A DNA stretch of 64,000 nucleotides from a virus (taxonomy: Duplodnaviria > Caudoviricetes): IMG/VR virus record IMGVR_UViG_3300035517_000173, positions 4,346 to 68,345 of that record. One strand, written 5' to 3'. Under the pieces are notes generated by a model, which saw only the letters and a list, made by a program, of their open reading frames with translations, was not told where the DNA came from and ran no database searches. Each line of letters begins with the position of its first letter. Position 1 is the first letter of the stretch. Below, one piece after another: positions 2,522 to 64,000 of the stretch. A program made the position numbers and the translations under genes.

Positions 2522-5500
2522 TTACAAGCAGAACGCAGGGCAGATACCATAGGTTTTATTCGGTACGGTAGTTACCGCCGTACCAGAAGTACTTACATAA
2601 TAAACATACGACCGACCCGATAAATATCCTTGTGACCACCATGCTACGGCACTTCCTGTACTTGTAGCATTACCGGCGTACTTAATTCGATTACTGCTTG
2701 TGTTATAATAGGCATAGCACGAACTACCAAAAATATCAATGTAATCTGCGATAAAACAATAATCAGAAACACTAGTGGTATCCATATATGGGGTCCAAGT
2801 CACTGGTCTAACCAAACCTTTAAGATAGCTCGGTAGTGCTGATTTAAATACGTTATTACACCAAGTGCGTCTTTCGCTCGTTTCCCAATAAAGATTGTAT
2901 ACAGTAGTATTACCGCTAGTTGTACTATTCAAGGTCATATACCCAGTCTCGGCTGTTGTTCCATTAGATAATACATTTTTAAGCTGTACCGTGATAAGTG
3001 CTTTTGTCTTGCCACCATTCGCATCGGTCAGTGTATCTTTGTCAAAATCCAAGATAACCAACTGCTGTGTCTGCGCTACATGGGATTCTCCTACTCCAGT
3101 CGCTGACATCGCAGACAGTGATATGGTTCTTGCATCGCCCACACTCCATACGGACTTCACGTCATCCAAAGTAATCATGCCGTTATAGTAGGCATTTATC
3201 ATTCTGGCAATCTGGCTGTCCGTTGCAGTTGACCATGGCACTAAGTATCCGCTAAATATATCCACGCTCGTAAGCACTGTTGAGCCAGATTTTAGGCTTA
3301 ATGTACTGCCATCCAGTGACATTGTGGTTGCGTAATTACTGTGGGTATGTGATGACTTCGCCGCACCTATGTTGTCTGGGGTACAGTATTCCTTGTAGTT
3401 TGTTTCATCTAATAATCTAGACCAGCTATACCAATCATCACCAACATCTCTTAATGCACGATACCACATTCCACCGCCAGCTTTATCCCAACGGACATCT
3501 ATTTCTGCTGAGCCTGTATTACCCATACCAAACCCAATTACAGCACCATATGGTGTTGGTGCATTTGTTCCAGTATACGTTCTGTATGAATATACTCCTC
3601 TATATAAAGTATTTCTTCCTGTTAATGGGTCAGCAGTACCTATTGGAGATATATGGTCGATTATATCACCGTAGTTCCCCTCGTCTAACACTCGTTTCCA
3701 GGATACCCATGTGCCGTTATTTCTTCCTCTAACTGCAATCGAACCAGACCGATAATCTCCATATATCATGTGTGCCCATGATGAAGAATAAACTTGCTTG
3801 TAAAGAGCACCATCCGTGATATCTGTTGTCAGTGCAGTACCAGTATACCCTTGTACATAGCCAATGGCATTAGCGGTCAAAGTATCCTGCCCTACATTTG
3901 CCGTAGATGTATTAGTAAAATATGAAAGACCAGATGCTGTATCTGCCACAGCTACTCTACCGTTCAGCGTACTAGTGAGATATCCAGTTGGTAATTCCGT
4001 TACATCTTCATTCTCCCAAGTCCATGATATACTGTTATATGCCTTAGAACCGAATGTAAAATCTGTGATAGTAATATCATCATATGTACCCTGTTTCTTA
4101 ACATAAAGTGTCCATGTACCTGTGTCAGATTTGTAATAGTATAGAGGCCATCCGTTTACTAACCAGTGATAACATCCAGCCACCGAAGGGTCTGTACTAG
4201 TATTTCCTGCAAATATTATGCTATAATTAATTTTTAAGCCAATACCTCTATGGGTCACAGCAAACATGATTGGTCTGTCTGCATAACTGCCTGTGATTTT
4301 CAGCGTAGCTATTTTCTTATAATAGCCATCGGTGTAATTGGTATATCCAAATTCTTTATTGACGATATCCTTATTCATGTAAATTCTGCCAGACACGTAT
4401 CCACCAGATAACGGCAAATATGTACTTGCGATGTTATTTCCATTGCCATCTTGCGTTGCTTTGGTTGCTGTGGCGACACTATCACTCGCCGTAATATATC
4501 CACTGTCATTTGTCAATGCAGACACCTTTGTCGGTATATCATCCGTAACAGCAATAGTCCCCGACTTGCTAGGAAGTGTAAGCTGATTTTTATTATACGT
4601 AGTTTCATTACAAATACTTTGACAATTTAAAATCCTGTGAATGTATCCATAATGCCATTTGTACGACGCTGACCCAAAGTCTATGTTACTAGATGTTTTA
4701 GGTGCTAACGCACCAGTAATTGAACTTGAACCCGACAAGGGTATAGCACCAACATTGTCACACGTGATGTTCACATTCCCCCTGCGATAGCTTGTCTCTG
4801 AATCTCCCTTTACTCCTGTCACTGGCGTTCCTGCAAGGCAATCCCAGTATCCGTCTGCCGTATAATAGACGTTCGTTCCCATCGGGTATTCGATACCGCC
4901 GCCATCTTTAAAATTGTCATCCGATGTGAAATCATCCGATATGTTATACATATAACCCGAAACTTTAGGAGACGTGTTCAGCTCGGCATAAGTTATCGTA
5001 CCCATAGGTAGAAGTGTTCCATTTAGCCCCTCTGATATACTTTTGGTCTGCTCATAATATTTCTTTGCGTCCTCGGAATATCCCTTTGATTCTGTGACGG
5101 CGGTATCCAGGTCGGTTGCATATCCGCTTGCACTTTCTGCGGATTGCAGTGCTTCTGATGCTTTCGCTGTTGCTGTATTAGCGGAATTGGATGCGCTTTC
5201 TGCACTTGCCTTAGCGTTTGTTTCGCTTGCACTTGCCGATTCCGCACTCTCACTTGCCGTAGATGCACTTTTTGACGCACTTGATTCACTCGCACTTGCC
5301 GATTCTGCGCTTGCTTTAGCGTTCGCTTCACTTGTTGATGCGCTTTCCGCTTTTTCCGTAGCAGTTTCTTCCGATTTCTTTGCCGATTCTGCGCTTGCAC
5401 TTGCGTTCTTCTCACTCGTCGATGCACTTTCTGCACTGGCTTTAGCGTTCGCTTCACTTGTTGATGCGCTTTCCGCTTTTTCCGTAGCAGTTTCTTCCGA

Positions 5501-33369: not shown

Positions 33370-33437
33370 CCGTGATTTTATAAAAACAACGGACAGGCAA
33401 TCACGGTTTTGCTTTTCGGGAGCTACCCTATTCCGTT
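33370..33437 (-). promoter_or_regulatory. Structured 5' leader with alternative helices
   Basis: AACGGA/TCCGTT helix competes with CCGTGATT/AATCACGG; GGGTAGCTCCCGAAAAG core. Confidence 0.45.
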
Positions 33438-33444
33438 ATTTTAA

Positions 33445-33511
33445 AAGGGTGTGTGGGACTTGAACCCACGCTTCATATGTATGTTGCTCTCGCCATCTGA
33501 GCTAACACCCT
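33445..33511 (-). tRNA. tRNA-like element with truncated anticodon arm (pseudo-tRNA)
   Basis: 7-bp acceptor AGGGTGT/ACACCCT, D arm GCTC/GAGC, T arm GTGGG-TTCAAGT-CCCAC; only 15 nt between D and T arms. Confidence 0.65.
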
Positions 33512-33611
33512 AGAATACCTCTGTGACGTAAAATTTGCCACTTATTTTTCGATTTTTATTCGTTTTGCGTAATTATACTGTCTAAACGTGCAAAATGCTT
33601 TAAATCGCAAA

Positions 33612-33851
33612 TTAAAGCGTCTCTTGTTTTATGAACGGCAATCCGTAAAGCGTATATCCGTTCTCAAAAACCATGTCGCACCACTTGAGGAACGTTGGCG
33701 TTGACACTCCTGCGACTTTTGCAGCTTTTCCTTGCGACAGTTCTCCATGCAAATATCCGTTAAACGCCTTTTCAAAGTCATCTGCATTGACTTTCTTTCC
33801 GGTGTAGTAGTTTGGATGACCTTTCACAAAAAAATTCCCCATTTTACACAT
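33612..33851 (-). CDS. Small HTH protein
   Basis: LSQGKAAKVAGVSTPTFLKW. Confidence 0.7.
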   Translation of the reverse strand: MCKMGNFFVKGHPNYYTGKKVNADDFEKAFNGYLHGELSQGKAAKVAGVSTPTFLKWCDMVFENGYTLYGLPFIKQETL

Positions 33852-33972
33852 CCTTTCTCTTTGGATAGGACAGATGGGATGACGTCATAGAAAAAATCAA
33901 GGGGAATTTCTACGATAAAGAGGAAATGCATCCCATCTGCCACGGAGACAAACCCTGCGTAAGTCTCCGCAA

Positions 33973-34050
33973 TACGCACAGCCGGAATCGAACCGGCGTT
34001 TCCAACACAACCGTAAATATACGGCAGATATCGTCTTATATCGTGTGCGC
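33973..34050 (-). tRNA. Degenerate tRNA-like element
   Basis: Acceptor GCGCACA/TGTGCGT, T arm GCCGG-TTCGATT-CCGGC; anticodon loop not 7 nt. Confidence 0.55.
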
Positions 34051-34124
34051 TCCGATGAACATTTTTCCAGAAAAGGGCAGTTTTCAAAGAAAATATTCTG
34101 ATACCCGGAAAGAACCGGGTAAAT

Positions 34125-34172
34125 GCTTCCCATGGGATTCGAACCCAACGTTGACGCCGACCGTCCGAAGCA
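34125..34172 (-). ncRNA. Minimal tRNA-like fragment (acceptor-like stem, one hairpin, T arm)
   Basis: GCTTC...GAAGC enclosing GACG/CGTC and TGGG-TTCGAAT-CCCA. Confidence 0.35.
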
Positions 34173-34306
34173 CCGCAGACTATAACTGCGCATCGCATCC
34201 GAAAACACGATGGTATGAATTCCACGCTTATCCGGTGACGTGGCAATCTTATAACTTGGGGAATTAAATTTAATTAACGTTACGCAGCATAAAACGGATA
34301 AGCAAA

Positions 34307-34381
34307 TGGCAATCTGCAGAATCGAACCGCAATCTTTTCTGTTACATGGCAAAACAGAACGTGCTCCGTACACTAATTGCC
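34307..34381 (-). tRNA. Degenerate tRNA-like element (9-nt anticodon loop)
   Basis: Acceptor GGCAATT/GATTGCC, stem TTCTGTT/AACAGAA with loop TTGCCATGT, T arm TGCGG-TTCGATT-CTGCA. Confidence 0.55.
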
Positions 34382-34427
34382 GCCTCATGTCGTAATAAGG
34401 AGAAAAAATCAAAAAAATCTAACAAAA

Positions 34428-34514
34428 CGCCGAAAGCAAGAATCGAACTTGCACAACGATTTTACTCGTTGGAGAGATTAGCAATCTCCTGTGATACCAT
34501 TACACCATTTCGGC
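34428..34514 (-). tRNA. tRNA-Ser(GCT)
   Basis: Full cloverleaf: GCCGAAA/TTTCGGC, anticodon loop TTGCTAA, long variable arm, GCAAG-TTCGATT-CTTGC, G discriminator, no encoded CCA. Confidence 0.88.
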
Positions 34515-37486: not shown

Positions 37487-37687
37487 TTATTTTAAATATT
37501 TTTCCATCCTTTCTAATTCATTGGAAACAACTTCTTTTATAAAACCGCCCGCCGATTTGATTCCAAGCCGTTTCATGCGTTCCCTCGTTCCTGCTGGGAA
37601 CACCACATTTATACGGTCATTCTTTTTTTCGTATTCTCTAACGGCTTTTCGTTGTGCTTCGGTTGTTTTTAGTTCCGTTTGTTCCAT
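37487..37687 (-). CDS. Small ribbon-helix-helix-type DNA-binding protein
   Basis: TEAQRKAVREYEKKNDRINVVFPAGTRERMK...FIKEVV. Confidence 0.75.
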   Translation of the reverse strand: MEQTELKTTEAQRKAVREYEKKNDRINVVFPAGTRERMKRLGIKSAGGFIKEVVSNELERMEKYLK

Positions 37688-37724
37688 TATCGTTCACTCC
37701 ATTCTTTCTTGTGACATTTATATC

Positions 37725-59740: not shown

Positions 59741-60115
59741 CTACACCTCGCTTTCATATCTGCCATCTATAATCATTCTATCTATGACACATTCCAGTTC
59801 TTCGTATGATATAGACAACTTGATATTCTCCATATTTTCATTGTAATATTCGATTTTGTGTCCGTTTTGGCTGTGGTCTGCACCATGAATATAATTAGGT
59901 TTTTTAGTTGGAGAACCAAACCCGCCTACTCCATATTCCTTTTTCAAGAAATCTATTCTCTCTTTTTTATCTGTGTTAGAATGAAAAAACTCTGCAATTC
60001 TTTTCTTCCCATTTGTGAAACCACTACCACCATTTGCGTAATCTTCAATAGGATTATATTCTTGCGATTCGTTCTGTATAAACGAAAATATAGACATTTG
60101 TCCGTCCATTGTCAT
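59741..60115 (-). CDS. Hypothetical protein
   Basis: GQMSIF; GSGF..GK.RI motif. Confidence 0.7.
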   Translation of the reverse strand: MTMDGQMSIFSFIQNESQEYNPIEDYANGGSGFTNGKKRIAEFFHSNTDKKERIDFLKKEYGVGGFGSPTKKPNYIHGADHSQNGHKIEYYNENMENIKLSISYEELECVIDRMIIDGRYESEV

Positions 60116-62025
60116 ACCTCGCTAACTGTCAATTTTTCGTCATCTGACCGCCTAATCATTATTATCTGATTGTCCATTTCCGGCACTCTCCAACTGTCAA
60201 GGCTCTCGGTATCGTCCGTAATAATCGGAAGTGTTACATTGTTTGCCCTCTGAAACGCCCGACAAATATCTATCTCTGCTAAAATCTTTGCACCATGATT
60301 AAGGTTTCTGTCGTAACTTTCGCCATTTACTACTGGTTGGCAAATATCTTTCAATTCACCGTTTATCTGTGGCTCAAACATCTTAAACTGGATATACTCA
60401 AAATTGTTGTTCACGCTTTCTTCCAGTAATTCATTTTTCTTCCGGTCAAACTCTTTCAGATAGTTCAGAGTCCGTTCTTCATCTGCAATTTTCTGTGAGA
60501 TTTCCCTCTGTTCTTTCTGCAATTCTGCAATCCGTTCATCAATCGCAACATTACTTTCAGATTTTGCAATCTGCTTTTCGATTTCAAGCAACTGTGACCG
60601 CAAGTCGTTTTCTTCATCCTTTAGATTTTGTTTCGTTGTGAAGAAAGAATTACTCTCTTTCATGGCTTTTTCTTTTTCTGCAATTTGATTATTCAGTTCA
60701 ACAATGTCCGTTCTTTCTACAATGTCCATTAACGGTGGAAGTTTACAGAACTGGTTTCTAAGGTCTGCAATGGCTGTATTCAGCATTTCAAGGCTTTTCT
60801 TGTGTTCGGCAAGTTCCAGTTCAAGTGTGCGTAATGTTTCCTGCTCAACCTCAATTTCAGATTTCAAACGATTTCCGCTTTCTTCAATGCTTTTCAATTT
60901 TTCTTCTCTATGGCTTTCAAATTCTGCCCTTAATTCGTCCTTTTTCTCACTAGGGTATTCTTGCCCGCAATACTGACAAATAAGGCTATTTTCGTCAAAT
61001 TCAAGGTCTTGCGTGTCTTTGTACTTCTCACGCAATCTCTCAACATCTATCCGATTTTCTTTGATTTCCCGCTTTACATAAATAATATCTTTTTCTGTGT
61101 CTTTAATCGTTCTATTGGTTTTATCTGCAAGGAATCTCTTTTCTGATAGCTTGTTCTCAATCTCTAACCTATACTTAGAATTTTCCTCATTCGCCTGTCT
61201 GATAAGGTCATTTACTTGAAACTTCAACTCCAGTATTCCGTCACTTGCCTTGTCGATTTCTTCCATCTGCTTAGATAAGTCATCCTGCTTTGCCTTATTC
61301 TCTTTCAACTGCTCCTTTATGGCATTTCTGCTCAATTCCAGTTCGGCAACATCAATGTCAATCTTATGTGTTTCAAGTTCCTTAATTGCTGAAATCTTCT
61401 CATCTCTTTGCTGTTCCAATCCGACAATATTTCTTGCTTTGCTGCCGTGAATTTTATCGTTGCAGCTTTGCTTGATTTCTTTTACACTTCCAACTTGAAG
61501 TAATGCTCTGATTGGCTCAAATTCAGAAAACATATCAACAATTTGTACGTTCGTGAATTTTCCAAATGTATTCTCTAACAGTTCTCTGCGTTTGGAAGTG
61601 TCCATCCGCAAGAAAGAATAAGGATTCACGCATAAATCGCTAGGAATGATTTCTGAAACATATTTCGCATATTCTCCGCTTTGTTTTGGAATATCTGACA
61701 CGTAACAATCCGTCACATTTCCAGTGATTTCTCCCTTTTTGTTGCGTTTCTGATAGTGTGACTTTTTGAGTGTTATGCCGCTGTCAAGTGCCAGTTCAAC
61801 CTCTGTCACAACATCATCAATGTCTTTACCCTCACTGTCATGCGGTCTTATGCCTGTAATTTCCTTGCCGTTCTCATCCTTAAGATTTAATATCCAGTAG
61901 ATAGCACGTTTAATTGTGGATTTTCCAACTTCATTACATCCGCTTATGGATGTAATATTATATAAGTCTGTCTCAAAATTATTATGCTTGCAGAAATTCC
62001 GTAAACGAATGTGTGTAAATTTCAT
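60112..62025 (-). CDS. SMC/SbcC-like AAA ATPase
   Basis: GCNEVGKST Walker A, long coiled coil, LNHG signature, IITDDTE. Confidence 0.88.
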   Translation of the reverse strand: MKFTHIRLRNFCKHNNFETDLYNITSISGCNEVGKSTIKRAIYWILNLKDENGKEITGIRPHDSEGKDIDDVVTEVELALDSGITLKKSHYQKRNKKGEITGNVTDCYVSDIPKQSGEYAKYVSEIIPSDLCVNPYSFLRMDTSKRRELLENTFGKFTNVQIVDMFSEFEPIRALLQVGSVKEIKQSCNDKIHGSKARNIVGLEQQRDEKISAIKELETHKIDIDVAELELSRNAIKEQLKENKAKQDDLSKQMEEIDKASDGILELKFQVNDLIRQANEENSKYRLEIENKLSEKRFLADKTNRTIKDTEKDIIYVKREIKENRIDVERLREKYKDTQDLEFDENSLICQYCGQEYPSEKKDELRAEFESHREEKLKSIEESGNRLKSEIEVEQETLRTLELELAEHKKSLEMLNTAIADLRNQFCKLPPLMDIVERTDIVELNNQIAEKEKAMKESNSFFTTKQNLKDEENDLRSQLLEIEKQIAKSESNVAIDERIAELQKEQREISQKIADEERTLNYLKEFDRKKNELLEESVNNNFEYIQFKMFEPQINGELKDICQPVVNGESYDRNLNHGAKILAEIDICRAFQRANNVTLPIITDDTESLDSWRVPEMDNQIIMIRRSDDEKLTVSEV

Positions 62026-62028
62026 ATA

Positions 62029-62661
62029 TTATTCCTCTCCTTTCACATCTCCGACATGGTATCTCCCATAACCGCTTGACCTACCGCTGCCGATTCCACT
62101 TCCAAATCCTGCAATATTGATAATGTTCAAAATCTGTTCTGCACTATATACATTTTCCATATAGGAAATTGTAAACGTAGCACTCCAACCACTAAAACGA
62201 TTAAGACGTGCTAATACTGGACTTCCCTTTTTAGGCGATATAAGTTTTTCATCAATAAAATGTTCTGAAAACACAATAGGCACTAAATCACCAACAATAT
62301 TTACATTTAAGTCAAATTTTGTCTTGTACTTATCAATCCCACTTCTAACGACCGAATCTCCAAATGATTTTTTTAGTCCAAACCCAGTAATGCAAGGTGC
62401 GTTTTCCTTTAATGCCTTTACTAGTCCTTTTTCTGAAAAATCTTTTGGTTTCCCATTTTTCCAGTGCATGGAAGTAATAATGCACTCCCATTCATTCGGT
62501 TTCTCATTATCTTTTGCCTTATCTTTTCTTTGGTTAATAAGTTGCCTTGCTGTAACATCGTTCATTTTGTTCAGCACCAAATCGCTATCTCCGACGATTG
62601 TTACCTCCATGTACTTTGTTGCAAACGGTTTCATTTCGATTGTGTTTGTAGTTCCTTTCAT
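62029..62661 (-). CDS. RAMP/Cas7-like RNA-binding protein (Vipr-like)
   Basis: N-terminal beta strand EVTIVGDSDLVLNK; W.A...ISY strand; C-terminal Gly loop AGFGSGIGSGRSSGYGRY; directly downstream of the pentamer array. Confidence 0.75.
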   Translation of the reverse strand: MKGTTNTIEMKPFATKYMEVTIVGDSDLVLNKMNDVTARQLINQRKDKAKDNEKPNEWECIITSMHWKNGKPKDFSEKGLVKALKENAPCITGFGLKKSFGDSVVRSGIDKYKTKFDLNVNIVGDLVPIVFSEHFIDEKLISPKKGSPVLARLNRFSGWSATFTISYMENVYSAEQILNIINIAGFGSGIGSGRSSGYGRYHVGDVKGEE

Positions 62662-62700
62662 TTTTAATTCCCCCTTAAACTTAAATTATTTTATTTCTAC

Positions 62701-63185
62701 CTCTACAACCTTGTAAGTGACAATAACAAATACAATATGCTGTCCTAGACTGTGATTTCCTGTCCTGTTATGTCCTTTAATACGCTATAGTGTTCTATGC
62801 AAGTGGCTATTGCCACTTATAAGATTGTAGAGAATAGTGTACTGTATTATGGTATGGTGTACTGTCGTGTTGTTTTGTTTTAATACGCTAAATTGATGTG
62901 TTTTGATTTGTTATCTGCCTTGATAGGCATTGGGTTAGCCTTAAAACTTTACAAGTATAGTTTATTGTTCTGTTTTGTCATGTGATGTACTGTACTGTTT
63001 TGCAGTGTTCTTGTTAGAATTAAAGCCAACCAAATACCTACCAAATTGCCCCATAATTCGTGAGTAAAACATATCCAAAGTAAAGATGTATTATAATGTT
63101 CTTTGCTGTTTTGTTATAATCTGTGATTTCATGTCCTGTTCTTTCCTGTTTTTATAGATGGTTTTACCCACCAACTATAAGGCAA
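62701..63185 (-). ncRNA. Array of four guide-like RNA units of NN-(ACA) pentamers, three enclosed by 24-28-bp stems
   Basis: Units at 63087-63151, 62956-63015, 62833-62913, 62731-62800; stems 63158-85/63046-72, 63020-43/62921-44, 62806-32/62701-27; 11 G-U pairs on the minus strand versus 1 A-C. Confidence 0.85.
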
Positions 63186-63203
63186 CTAGCAGATATTAAA
63201 TTT

Positions 63204-63632
63204 TCAAAGTGCGTCTATCTCTGCAAAAATACTCTCTAATTCAGTTAGCGTGTGATACCTCTTTTTGAAAGACTGCAATTCCAGTTTTGCCCTTTTCAAT
63301 AAACTTTGGTATTCATCTTCGTTCTTTAAAATCATTTTCACTGGTTGATATACGCTTTTTTGCGTTGTAATCTGAAAAGTTCTTATTGGTTCGTTATCTT
63401 TTTCAACTGGGGTAAATACAAACATTCGTATCATTTCTCTTGCTTGCAGATTTCTATATTTCTCCCCGGCTACAGTGTCATTCCACTCAAAATCATTGTG
63501 TATGACCGAATTTTCGTTCCTTGCCAAATCCACAACATTCTGTGGCGTGATATTTTCTAGTTTAGCTATTTCCTCATAGGCTTTTTGTGCGTCAGCCTTA
63601 TATTTTGGAATTTTCCATGATATTTTCTCCAT
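63204..63632 (-). CDS. Accessory protein immediately upstream of the pentamer array
   Basis: ITPQNVVDLARNENSVIHNDFEWNDTVAGEKYR..QAR motif; helical. Confidence 0.8.
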   Translation of the reverse strand: MEKISWKIPKYKADAQKAYEEIAKLENITPQNVVDLARNENSVIHNDFEWNDTVAGEKYRNLQAREMIRMFVFTPVEKDNEPIRTFQITTQKSVYQPVKMILKNEDEYQSLLKRAKLELQSFKKRYHTLTELESIFAEIDAL

Positions 63633-63635
63633 TTG

Positions 63636-63998
63636 CTAACACCTCGATTCTTCTAATTCCTTAACTTCTCCATTTTCGATAACATACCAAGTGTTTTCTT
63701 TGATGGTTTCTCCGTCTACTTGTACCATCTTCGCACCTTTCAATGTCCATGAATCAGGTTTCCAGTATTCAGATTCGTCACCTTCCCAATCTGCAAATAC
63801 AAGATGTGAACCTTTAACGCCTTTGGCTTTGGACTTGTAACCCCATGCAATAGCAACCGATTCTTTATCTTTTGCAGATGAAGCACCCTTGTAACCAGTG
63901 GCAGATGAAGCACCACAGTTACCAGTGGCAGATGAAGCACCCTTGTAACCAGTGGCAGATGAAGCACCCTTGTAACCAGTGGCAGATGAAGCACCCTT
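63636..63998 (-). CDS. Gly/Ala/Ser repeat protein (partial, runs off the window)
   Basis: True frame reads (GASSATGYK)n...AIAWGYKSKAKG...VDGETIKENTWY; the track ORF 63740-63994 is the wrong frame. Confidence 0.8.
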   Translation of the reverse strand, partial: KGASSATGYKGASSATGYKGASSATGNCGASSATGYKGASSAKDKESVAIAWGYKSKAKGVKGSHLVFADWEGDESEYWKPDSWTLKGAKMVQVDGETIKENTWYVIENGEVKELEESRC

Positions 63999-64000
63999 GT
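63874..64000. repeat. 27-bp tandem repeat (at least 4.7 copies)
   Basis: GCAGATGAAGCACCCTTGTAACCAGTG units. Confidence 0.95.

What the first reader, a model, noticed from the sequence alone, without database searches (positions are those of the whole stretch)
62701..63185. Stem-bracketed guide architecture and strand assignment by G-U bias
Seen: three pentamer tracts (13, 12 and 14 units; all 39 end in A, 22 end in ACA) each sit in the loop of a 24-28-bp helix with only 1-2 defects. The three helices differ in sequence, so structure rather than sequence is kept. The minus strand gives 11 G-U pairs and one A-C, so the functional RNA is the minus strand. Short alternative hairpins overlap the arms (AAGTGGC/GCCACTT, TGCCT/AGGCA). 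Inference: long helices could be RNase III-type processing sites that release single guides.
Basis: partly seen in the sequence, partly recalled or inferred. Interest (0 to 1): 0.75.

Follow-up and report, generated by a model that had tools for sequence, protein, structure and literature searches.

The report
ACA-type VIPR guide-RNA array in hairpins
This phage stretch is a guide-RNA array of the recently described VIPR system, a phage-borne relative of CRISPR; its repeats use ACA instead of GGY, long hairpins separate its guides, and the guides match essential genes of rival phages.

Summary
On the minus strand, three tracts of 13-14, 12 and 14 NN-ACA pentamers sit in the loops of 26-31-bp helices. 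A fourth tract lies between helices 2 and 3.

The region lies between a 142-aa gene and a 210-aa gene. The 210-aa protein is a Vipr homologue: its family profile matches solved SUSP1 Vipr at E 7e-14, and its model has a Cas7-like RAMP fold. So this is a VIPR locus, a system described in 2026 preprints: candidate accessory gene, vrRNA array, vipr.

All 18 related viral loci I could inspect that carry ACA-type arrays show the same layout: same strand, different stem sequences, G-U pairs far outnumbering A-C mismatches, and compensatory changes.

The published 1-nt-skip rule holds here. Window guide 4 matches 25-27 of 28 variable bases, in codon frame, in family-A DNA polymerase genes of more than 100 other phages. 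Guides of three related phages hit the same phage group, and one hits rival vipr genes, including this window's. Guides in loops and in linkers both find targets.

What differs from published VIPR is the constant motif (A-H-A, not GGY) and the hairpin-separated array. RNase III processing is plausible but untested. The scan's own sibling notes had already proposed a VIPR-like reading of this stretch.

The parts
63204..63632 (-). 142-aa gene, candidate VIPR accessory gene (vap)
   Evidence: A homologue lies next to vipr plus a pentamer array in all 19 related loci, including L020, which has a canonical GGC/NN array. It has no Pfam family and belongs to PHROG 15946, of unknown function. The AF2 model has pLDDT 85 and no PDB fold match.
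63045..63186 (-). Hairpin 1: arms 63155-63186 and 63045-63077 (30 bp, 6 G-U pairs) with a 77-nt loop
   Evidence: Minimum-energy fold and inverted repeat I2.
63087..63156 (-). Guide 1 (loop type): 14 pentamers, 8 ending in ACA
   Evidence: No convincing target: an 8-unit core gave 15 IMG/VR hits whose flanks match at chance level.
62920..63044 (-). Hairpin 2: arms 63010-63044 and 62920-62955 (31 bp, 4 G-U pairs)
   Evidence: It has orthologues in L003, L004, L006, L009 and L019. 14 of 27 pairs show double-sided compensatory changes on an arm-only alignment; 5 of 23 do with MAFFT plus RNAalifold on whole hairpins.
62956..63015 (-). Guide 2 (loop type): 12 pentamers, 8 ending in ACA
   Evidence: The 9-unit core read as NNx gave 28 hits in genome contigs. 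Of these, 19 lie in frame on the KELNVVSWN motif of PC4/YdbC-like genes (PF02229), mostly of Clostridia and other Bacillota, and match 19-22 of 24 bases. This target is tentative.
62838..62918 (-). Guide tract 3 (linker type, between hairpins 2 and 3): two 9-unit phases, 62874-62918 and 62838-62882, offset by +1
   Evidence: It occupies the same position as the validated linker guide L019:5266-5330. No target was found for the first phase.
62906..62919 (-). Small alternative hairpin TGCCT/AGGCA, overlapping the 3' arm of hairpin 2
   Evidence: Read directly from the sequence.
62701..62832 (-). Hairpin 3: arms 62806-62832 and 62701-62727 (26 bp, 3 G-U pairs, 1 A-C mismatch) with a 78-nt loop
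   Evidence: (I1).
62801..62818 (-). Small alternative hairpin AAGTGGC-AATA-GCCACTT, mutually exclusive with the inner part of hairpin 3
   Evidence: It is conserved in L002, L003, L004 and L019 with covariation.
62731..62800 (-). Guide 4 (loop type): 14 pentamers, fills 70 of the 78 loop nucleotides
   Evidence: Read as NNx it matches 25-27 of 28 bases in frame on AELALGYGGSVGAL. This motif lies in family-A DNA polymerase genes (PF00476) at 105 of 106 matched sites in 113 IMG/VR contigs. The best match in the phage's own genome is 17 of 28.
62029..62661 (-). vipr gene (210 aa): RAMP protein that should polymerise on the guides
   Evidence: The family profile A1 matches PDB 36pp_D 'SUSP1 Vipr protein' at E 6.8e-14. 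The AF2 model has pLDDT 96.5. The best Foldseek matches are Cmr4, Csm3 and type VII Cas7 at E about 1e-6.
62561..62598 (-). Site inside this vipr gene that matches a guide of a rival phage (L019)
   Evidence: 22 of 26 NN bases match in frame on IVGDSDLVLNKMN. L019's own vipr matches only 17 of 26.

Best explanation
The region is the vrRNA array of a VIPR (Viral Interference Programmable Repeat) system. It is transcribed from the minus strand, within or alongside a candidate-vap / array / vipr operon.

Each guide is a run of 9-14 pentamers of the form NN-A-H-A (mostly NN-ACA). By homology with SUSP1 Vipr, one Vipr protomer binds per pentamer. It sequesters the constant trinucleotide and presents the NN bases. 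The NN bases pair with double-stranded DNA targets in which every third base is skipped.

The targets are essential or conserved genes of competing mobile elements: family-A DNA polymerase genes of other phages, rival vipr genes, and probably a PC4-like gene.

The 26-31-bp helices are inter-guide separators. Guides lie both inside the loops and in the linkers between hairpins.

Inferred, not shown: the stems are cut, most simply by host RNase III, or otherwise opened, to release single guides. The extended helical Vipr filament cannot form on a loop that is held closed.
For: Protein: profile homology to solved SUSP1 Vipr (E 6.8e-14). The confident model has a RAMP fold matching Csm3 and Cmr4.

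Repeat: over 581 units from 12 loci, positions 1-2 are near uniform, position 3 is A in 78%, and position 4 is C 50%, T 26%, A 21%, G 3%. Position 5 is A by definition of the tracts.

Synteny: vap homologue, array and vipr lie together in all 19 loci. L020 has a canonical GGC/NN array with the same vap family.

Targets under the 1-nt-skip rule only (skip 0, skip 2 and shuffled-unit controls stay at background), always with the skipped base on the codon wobble position:
- Window guide 4: 25-27 of 28 in polA genes. The 12 bases not used in the search match 9-11 of 12.
- L011, L017 and L019 guides hit the same phage set at 18-20 of 22, 24-26 of 30 and 28-32 of 34. These loci were fetched without using those guides.
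- An L019 linker guide hits vipr genes of eight relatives at 22-24 of 26, but its own vipr at only 17 of 26.
- No self-targets in the window's own genome.

Strand and structure: z -6.85 against -2.24. G-U 150 against A-C 17 in 12 loci. Compensatory pairs.

Geometry: the published filament has about 72 A pitch and six protomers per turn (10.64898/2026.04.26.720927). That gives roughly 170 A for 14 units (my arithmetic), while the ends of a stem-closed loop are about 20 A apart (established A-form geometry, not computed here).
Against: - No RNA evidence: no sequencing run was listed, and no promoter or terminator stands out. Transcript ends and processing are therefore unknown.
- Guides 1 and 3 have no identified target. 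The guide 2 target rests on one conserved motif, with only 1-4 of 6 extra bases matching.
- The constant motif is not the GGY that defines published vrRNAs, and binding of A-H-A by this Vipr clade is inferred only.
- The G-loop change (GIGSGR in place of G-x-G-D/E-W-R) does not by itself explain the specificity. One relative with GIGSGR (L221) has GGC/NN arrays.
Confidence: 0.85

Rival explanations
1. Same VIPR guide array, but the stems are not RNase III sites. They cap or delimit Vipr filaments, as the 3' pseudoknot does in SUSP1. Alternatively another nuclease cuts them (Vipr itself in Cas6 fashion, the 142-aa protein, RNase Y or J), or they are simply melted during filament assembly. The conserved small alternative hairpins would then serve as the refolded handles.
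For: The published SUSP1 complex has a structured 3' cap. Published arrays use varied processing routes, including hammerhead ribozymes and staggered arrays. The alternative hairpins are mutually exclusive with the long stems, and one covaries. In hairpin 3, the guide fills the stretch between the small hairpin and the 3' arm.
Against: Stems of 26-38 bp are far longer than a cap needs and are typical dsRNA substrates. Nothing here shows nuclease residues in Vipr or in the 142-aa protein.
Confidence: 0.3
2. The pentamer RNA is not a guide but a sponge or wrapper for a ring-shaped or helical RNA-binding protein that reads 5 nt per subunit, in the manner of TRAP. The stem would close the loop around it.
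For: The period is 5 nt, with 12-14 units per closed loop. This was my first reading.
Against: The variable NN bases match real genes under the 1-nt-skip rule in five independent guides. The adjacent protein is a Vipr homologue that forms helical filaments, not rings.
Confidence: 0.03
3. The element acts as DNA: a replication origin, iterons or single-strand hairpins next to the RecT and SbcC-like recombination genes.
For: It lies inside a recombination module. G-T wobble pairs would also stabilise single-stranded DNA hairpins.
Against: It is linked to vipr and the vap candidate, not to the recombination genes. The ATPase changes side or is absent, and RecT is usually not adjacent. A canonical GGY-type locus carries its array next to the same two gene families, though in reversed gene order. 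The target matches are explained only by a guide role.
Confidence: 0.03

Closest known systems
VIPR systems: Vipr protein plus vrRNA (type II examples Escherichia phage SUSP1 and a Pseudomonas fulva prophage; bioRxiv 10.64898/2026.04.26.720920 and 10.64898/2026.04.26.720927)
   Same: Phage-encoded. A minimal locus with a Vipr RAMP protein, here homologous by profile to SUSP1 Vipr, and a small neighbouring gene. Guides of 9-16 pentamers, each three constant plus two variable bases. Natural targets follow the 1-nt-skip rule, with the skipped base on codon wobble positions. Targets are rival phages and rival VIPR genes, with no self-targets.
   Different: The constant trinucleotide is A-H-A (mostly ACA), not GGY or the listed variants NNNGG, YNNNG and NNNNG. 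The G-loop residues that read the two guanines in SUSP1 (D177, W178) are Ser-Gly here. No conserved 3' tail or pseudoknot was seen. Instead 26-38-bp hairpins bracket the guides, and both loops and linkers carry guides. The text of the preprints held here does not mention this architecture. Which of types I-VII this belongs to could not be determined.
Non-canonical VIPR-like arrays found by a genomic language model (bioRxiv 10.64898/2026.10.21.760802)
   Same: That preprint reports 21 clusters of 5-nt-period arrays beside Vipr-like folds with fixed trinucleotides other than GGY, for example GAC, CAC, WGT and TGH. TGH/NN or WGT/NN could be the opposite-strand reading of the D-C-A / A-C-W units seen here.
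   Different: The text available to me names no ACA motif and describes no hairpin bracketing, no targets and no test of the skip rule. Its figures could not be read, so the overlap is unverified.
CRISPR class 1 crRNA with a Cas7 backbone
   Same: RAMP-fold protomers polymerise on a guide RNA and interrupt pairing periodically. Csm3 and Cmr4 are the best fold matches.
   Different: There is no repeat-spacer array, no cas genes and no adaptation module. The guide is non-contiguous, with 2 of every 5 bases pairing. This is not a CRISPR member.
RNase III maturation of structured phage and CRISPR transcripts (type II tracrRNA:crRNA duplexes; phage early mRNA hairpins)
   Same: Long perfect or near-perfect dsRNA stems flank the functional RNA segments.
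   Different: Here the duplex is intramolecular, and cleavage is only inferred.

Membership tests
VIPR system | Vipr protein: a minimal RAMP (RRM core, G-loop, thumb) homologous to characterised Vipr | tested here: met
   Profile A1 against PDB 36pp_D SUSP1 Vipr: E 6.8e-14 over residues 4-188. The AF2 model has pLDDT 96.5. Foldseek gives Cmr4, Csm3 and Cas7 at E about 1e-6. The single sequence alone reaches only E 0.89.
VIPR system | Tandem pentanucleotide repeats with three constrained and two hypervariable positions, in an intergenic region next to vipr | tested here: met
   Logo over 581 units. Runs are present upstream of vipr in all 17 loci found with the Vipr protein, and between vap and vipr in L019 and L020. 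The run statistic beats every one of 2000 shuffles.
VIPR system | Constant motif GGY (YNNGG), or the published variants NNNGG, YNNNG, NNNNG | tested here: not met
   The constant part is A (78%), then C/T/A, then A. G is 3% at position 4 and absent from position 5 by definition of the tracts. The relative L020 does have GGC/NN.
VIPR system | 9-16 repeat units per vrRNA | tested here: met
   The window tracts hold 14, 12, 9+9 and 14 units. Relatives mostly hold 9-19, with one tract of 23.
VIPR system | Target recognition by the 1-nt-skip rule (NNx), with natural targets in competing mobile elements and no self-targets | tested here: met
   Five guides give matches of 82-96% only at skip 1, all in codon frame. 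The own genome stays at background. This is computational only.
VIPR system | Associated vap accessory gene | tested here: inconclusive
   A 142-aa gene family is adjacent in 19 of 19 loci, including a canonical GGY-type locus. Its identity with published vap1-6 could not be checked because no sequences were available, and it has no known fold.
VIPR system | vrRNAs are expressed as roughly 100-nt RNAs and co-purify with Vipr | not testable with these tools
   No sequencing run was listed for this DNA.
VIPR system | Structured invariable tail capping the repeat tract (3' pseudoknot in the SUSP1 clade) | tested here: inconclusive
   No shared tail was seen. Instead there are flanking long helices and small alternative hairpins. 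Pseudoknots were not searched for.
RNase III substrate | dsRNA stem of about 20 bp or more that is cleaved with staggered cuts in an rnc-dependent way | not testable with these tools
   Stem length and quality fit: 22-38 bp in all loci. Cleavage itself needs RNA end mapping.
CRISPR array | Direct repeats of 25-40 nt alternating with spacers, plus cas genes | tested here: not met
   No such repeats were found. There is no Rfam hit and there are no cas genes nearby.

The most novel reading that the evidence does not exclude
This clade is a distinct specificity class of VIPR with two features.

First, the Vipr protomer reads an adenine-rich A-H-A trinucleotide instead of GGY, using a remodelled G-loop.

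Second, array biogenesis follows a new route. A single transcript folds into a chain of long hairpins, and host RNase III cuts every stem. Both the loops and the inter-hairpin linkers then become guides, each keeping a half-stem that refolds into a small handle hairpin.

If true, VIPR recognition of the constant bases is evolvable. That would give orthogonal Vipr/vrRNA pairs and a processing logic not seen in CRISPR or in published VIPR arrays.
Probability: 0.4. Interest if true: 0.65.

Novelty: new variant of a known kind. Interest (0 to 1): 0.55.

Why it matters
VIPR was described only in 2026, and experimental work has centred on GGY-type systems of Proteobacteria.

This locus and its roughly 20 gut-phage relatives show that the same gapped code runs on a different constant motif, in phages whose guide targets lie largely in Bacillota genomes. 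That bears on how Vipr reads its repeat and whether orthogonal systems can be built.

The hairpin-separated layout, with guides in loops and linkers, is a testable new solution to guide maturation.

The predicted targets give a concrete picture of phage-against-phage warfare in the gut. They are the DNA polymerase and neighbouring genes of a large polA-phage group, plus the vipr genes of rivals. They also provide ready-made natural target pairs for experiments.

Tried and rejected
- Rfam, at gathering and at E-value thresholds: no family for the region.
- blastn against GenBank phages: no match.
- My first idea, a TRAP-like ring-protein wrap or a RecT-binding element: dropped once the Vipr homology and the targets appeared.
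- MazF (ACA) decoy and CsrA (GGA) sponge: considered from memory and dropped. Neither UACAU nor GGA is consistent across the tracts.
- Guide 2, 9-unit core (units 2-10) in IMG/VR: 0 hits. Units 1-9: 2 chance-like hits.
- Guide 1, 8-unit core: 15 hits with chance-level flanks.
- Guide 3a: 2 hits, not examined further.
- The guide conserved in L003, L004 and L006: 0 hits.
- Local search of 91 candidate tracts against 674 kb of related phage genomes: only the L019 linker guide stood out.
- Sequencing runs: none was listed.
- Promoter and terminator scan: nothing above the shuffle expectation.
- 142-aa protein: no Pfam family, no PDB sequence hit, no match by Foldseek or VIA-align.
- G-loop motif as the sole determinant of repeat type: rejected because of counterexample L221.
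- The 12-unit A-phase run at 37648-37707 overlaps the 5' end of a 66-aa ORF and has no neighbouring tracts or bracketing stems, so I treat it as chance.

Full report
**What is there**

The window is the last 64 kb of a 68,345-bp IMG/VR virus record. Positions 62662-63203 are intergenic, between two minus-strand genes. Upstream lies a 142-aa ORF (63204-63632). Downstream lies a 210-aa ORF (62029-62661), followed by an SbcC-like ATPase and, further on, a RecT-like gene.

Read on the minus strand, the region holds four A/C-rich tracts in which every fifth base is A and most units end in ACA. Three tracts sit in loops of long helices: 63087-63156, 62956-63015 and 62731-62800. The fourth, 62838-62918, is the linker between helices 2 and 3 and carries a one-base phase shift.

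Three runs of 12 or more units were never seen in 2000 dinucleotide-preserving shuffles.

The helices are 30, 31 and 26 bp in the minimum-energy fold, with 13 G-U pairs and one A-C mismatch. The minus strand folds far better than chance (z -6.85); the plus strand barely does (z -2.24).

**Conservation**

The 210-aa protein led to 17 related viral loci, and the 142-aa protein to two more. In all 17 loci found with the 210-aa protein, same-strand pentamer tracts lie directly upstream of that gene. Most lie in loops of 22-38-bp helices whose sequences differ from unit to unit and from locus to locus.

Across 12 loci the long helices contain 150 G-U pairs against 17 A-C mismatches. This count leans somewhat towards G-U because the sense strand was the one folded.

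One helix (helix 2) has recognisable orthologues in six loci. On an arm-only alignment, 14 of 27 pairs show changes on both sides that keep pairing. A less favourable whole-hairpin MAFFT alignment still gives 5 of 23.

**Identity**

Rfam has nothing for this region.

A sibling note of this scan called the stretch 'VIPR-like'. The literature tool confirmed that VIPR systems were described in 2026 preprints. A phage-encoded RAMP protein, Vipr, polymerises one protomer per pentamer on vrRNAs made of GGY/NN repeats. It hides GGY and presents NN. The NN bases pair with DNA in which every third base is skipped.

I tested membership directly:
- The 210-aa family has 507 clusters at 50% identity. As a profile it matches the solved SUSP1 Vipr chain 36pp_D at E 6.8e-14.
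- Its AlphaFold model is confident (pLDDT 96.5). Its best PDB fold matches are Cmr4, Csm3 and type VII Cas7.
- The 142-aa gene is adjacent in all 19 loci. One of these, L020, is a high-GC relative whose array is a textbook GGC/NN vrRNA.

The locus is therefore candidate vap, then vrRNA array, then vipr.

**Does it work like VIPR?**

I converted tracts to NNx patterns.

*Window guide 4.* Searched with only its central eight units, it returned at least 113 IMG/VR contigs.
- In the 80 loci examined first, the full 14-unit guide matched 25-27 of 28 variable bases in 74.
- The match was always in codon frame, with the skipped base at the wobble position.
- The motif is AELALGYGGSVGAL, within ...RQKGKIAELALGYGGSVGAL....
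- The 12 bases outside the search pattern matched 9-11 of 12, where chance gives about 3.
- The gene is a family-A DNA polymerase (PF00476).

*Guides of other phages.* These contigs were fetched without reference to any other guide. Even so, guides from three other phages hit them, under skip 1 only:
- L011: 18-20 of 22, on the adjoining RQKGKIAELAL.
- L019: 28-32 of 34, in 59 contigs.
- L017: 24-26 of 30, in 16 contigs.

Skip 0, skip 2 and shuffled-unit controls stayed at background.

*A guide against rival vipr genes.* A linker-type guide of L019 matches 22-24 of 26 bases on the (I/V)VGD(G/S)DLVLNKMN site of the vipr genes of eight relatives. This includes the window's own vipr at 62561-62598. 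It matches L019's own vipr at only 17 of 26.

*The other window guides.* Guide 2 probably targets the KELNVVSWN motif of PC4/YdbC-like genes, mostly of Clostridia and other Bacillota. 19 of 28 genome hits fall there, in frame. That rests on one conserved motif, so I rate it tentative. Guides 1 and 3 found nothing convincing. The phage does not target itself.

These results reproduce the published signatures of VIPR: the skip-1 rule, wobble alignment, rival phages and rival VIPRs as targets, and no self-hits. They confirm two recollections in the scan's sibling notes, the polymerase motif and the PC4 motif.

**What is different**

The constant trinucleotide is A-H-A, not GGY. Position 3 is A in 78% of units. 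Position 4 is C 50%, T 26%, A 21%, G 3%. Position 5 is A.

In the L003/L004/L006 subclade only the last A is strict. The four substitutions between two orthologous guides all fall at positions 3-4, leaving NN untouched (my count).

The SUSP1 residues that read the two guanines, D177 and W178 of the G-loop, are Ser-Gly in this clade (GIGSGR) and Thr-Gln in L019. Relatives with E/D-W have GGY arrays (L020, L220). One GIGSGR protein (L221) also has GGC arrays, so the G-loop alone does not set specificity.

The discovery paper lists only G-containing variants and does not mention stems or RNase III. Neither does the satellite paper. An October 2026 preprint reports 21 clusters with non-canonical trinucleotides (GAC, CAC, WGT, TGH). 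Some may be arrays like this one read on the other strand, but I could not see its figures.

**The stems**

Of the five guides with clear targets, three are loop-type (window guide 4, L019:5149, L017:3335) and two are linker-type (L019:5266, L011:3633). Every helix therefore separates two guides.

Window guide 4 fills 70 of its 78 loop nucleotides. It runs from just after the small alternative hairpin to three bases before the 3' arm.

The published filament rises about 12 A per protomer (72 A pitch, six per turn). By my arithmetic, 14 units span roughly 170 A. That cannot be reconciled with loop ends held about 20 A apart by a stem, so the stems must be cut or opened.

Host RNase III is the simplest agent for 26-38 bp of dsRNA, but nothing here tests it. 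Capping, another nuclease, or melting coupled to the conserved alternative hairpins remain open.

**Verdict**

The strand assignment and the 'structure, not sequence' claim are supported. The guide reading is strongly supported computationally. The RNase III step is a reasonable but untested inference.

The system belongs to a kind that is already known from 2026 preprints, which the scan's sibling note had recognised. It is a new variant in two respects: its constant motif and its array architecture.

Noticed in passing
window 62561-62598 (minus strand, inside vipr): The window's own vipr gene carries a site matching 22 of 26 variable bases of a guide from a more distant VIPR phage (L019:5266-5330). 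VIPR phages appear to target each other's vipr genes.
   Followed up: yes
L020:3790-3960: A high-GC relative has a canonical GGC/NN vrRNA array between a 25%-identical vipr and a homologue of the 142-aa gene, with the gene order reversed (vipr, array, vap).
   Followed up: partly
L221:2365-2501 and 3211-3440: A distant Vipr relative (P0084) has the GIGSGR G-loop but is flanked by GGC/NN arrays. The G-loop Ser-Gly therefore does not by itself predict the ACA motif.
   Followed up: partly
L003:2855-2929 versus L004:3873-3947: These orthologous 15-unit guides differ by four substitutions. All four fall at pentamer positions 3-4 and none in the NN or the final A, which suggests purifying selection on the NN bases.
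   Followed up: partly
window 60112-62025 (minus strand) and related loci: An SbcC-like AAA ATPase (PHROG 77) lies next to the VIPR module in many loci, but on either side of it, and it is absent from the flanks of others. It may be phage recombination machinery rather than part of VIPR.
   Followed up: partly
window 62838-62918: The linker tract changes pentamer phase by +1 near 62878-62882. It is either two 9-unit guides or one guide with a 6-nt unit.
   Followed up: no
window 63874-64000: A 27-bp tandem repeat (4.7 copies, running to the contig end) lies inside a minus-strand ORF and encodes repeats of a Gly/Ser/Ala-rich nonapeptide.
   Followed up: no
window 33370-34514: Rfam finds two tRNAs and an int-alpA RNA on the minus strand.
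   Followed up: no
L215:5814-6184: An NCBI MAG contig (GCA_948903735.1) carries the same vap, hairpin array and Vipr-like gene, next to Phage_pRha, SSB and AAA_15 genes. The system therefore also occurs in assembled bacterial genomes, presumably as a prophage.
   Followed up: partly
L145 (minus strand, about 1228) and similar sites in 16 contigs: The L017 guide hits a second gene of the polA-phage group, at the peptide AAEGT(A/D)AH.LCEYKL. I did not identify this gene.
   Followed up: no
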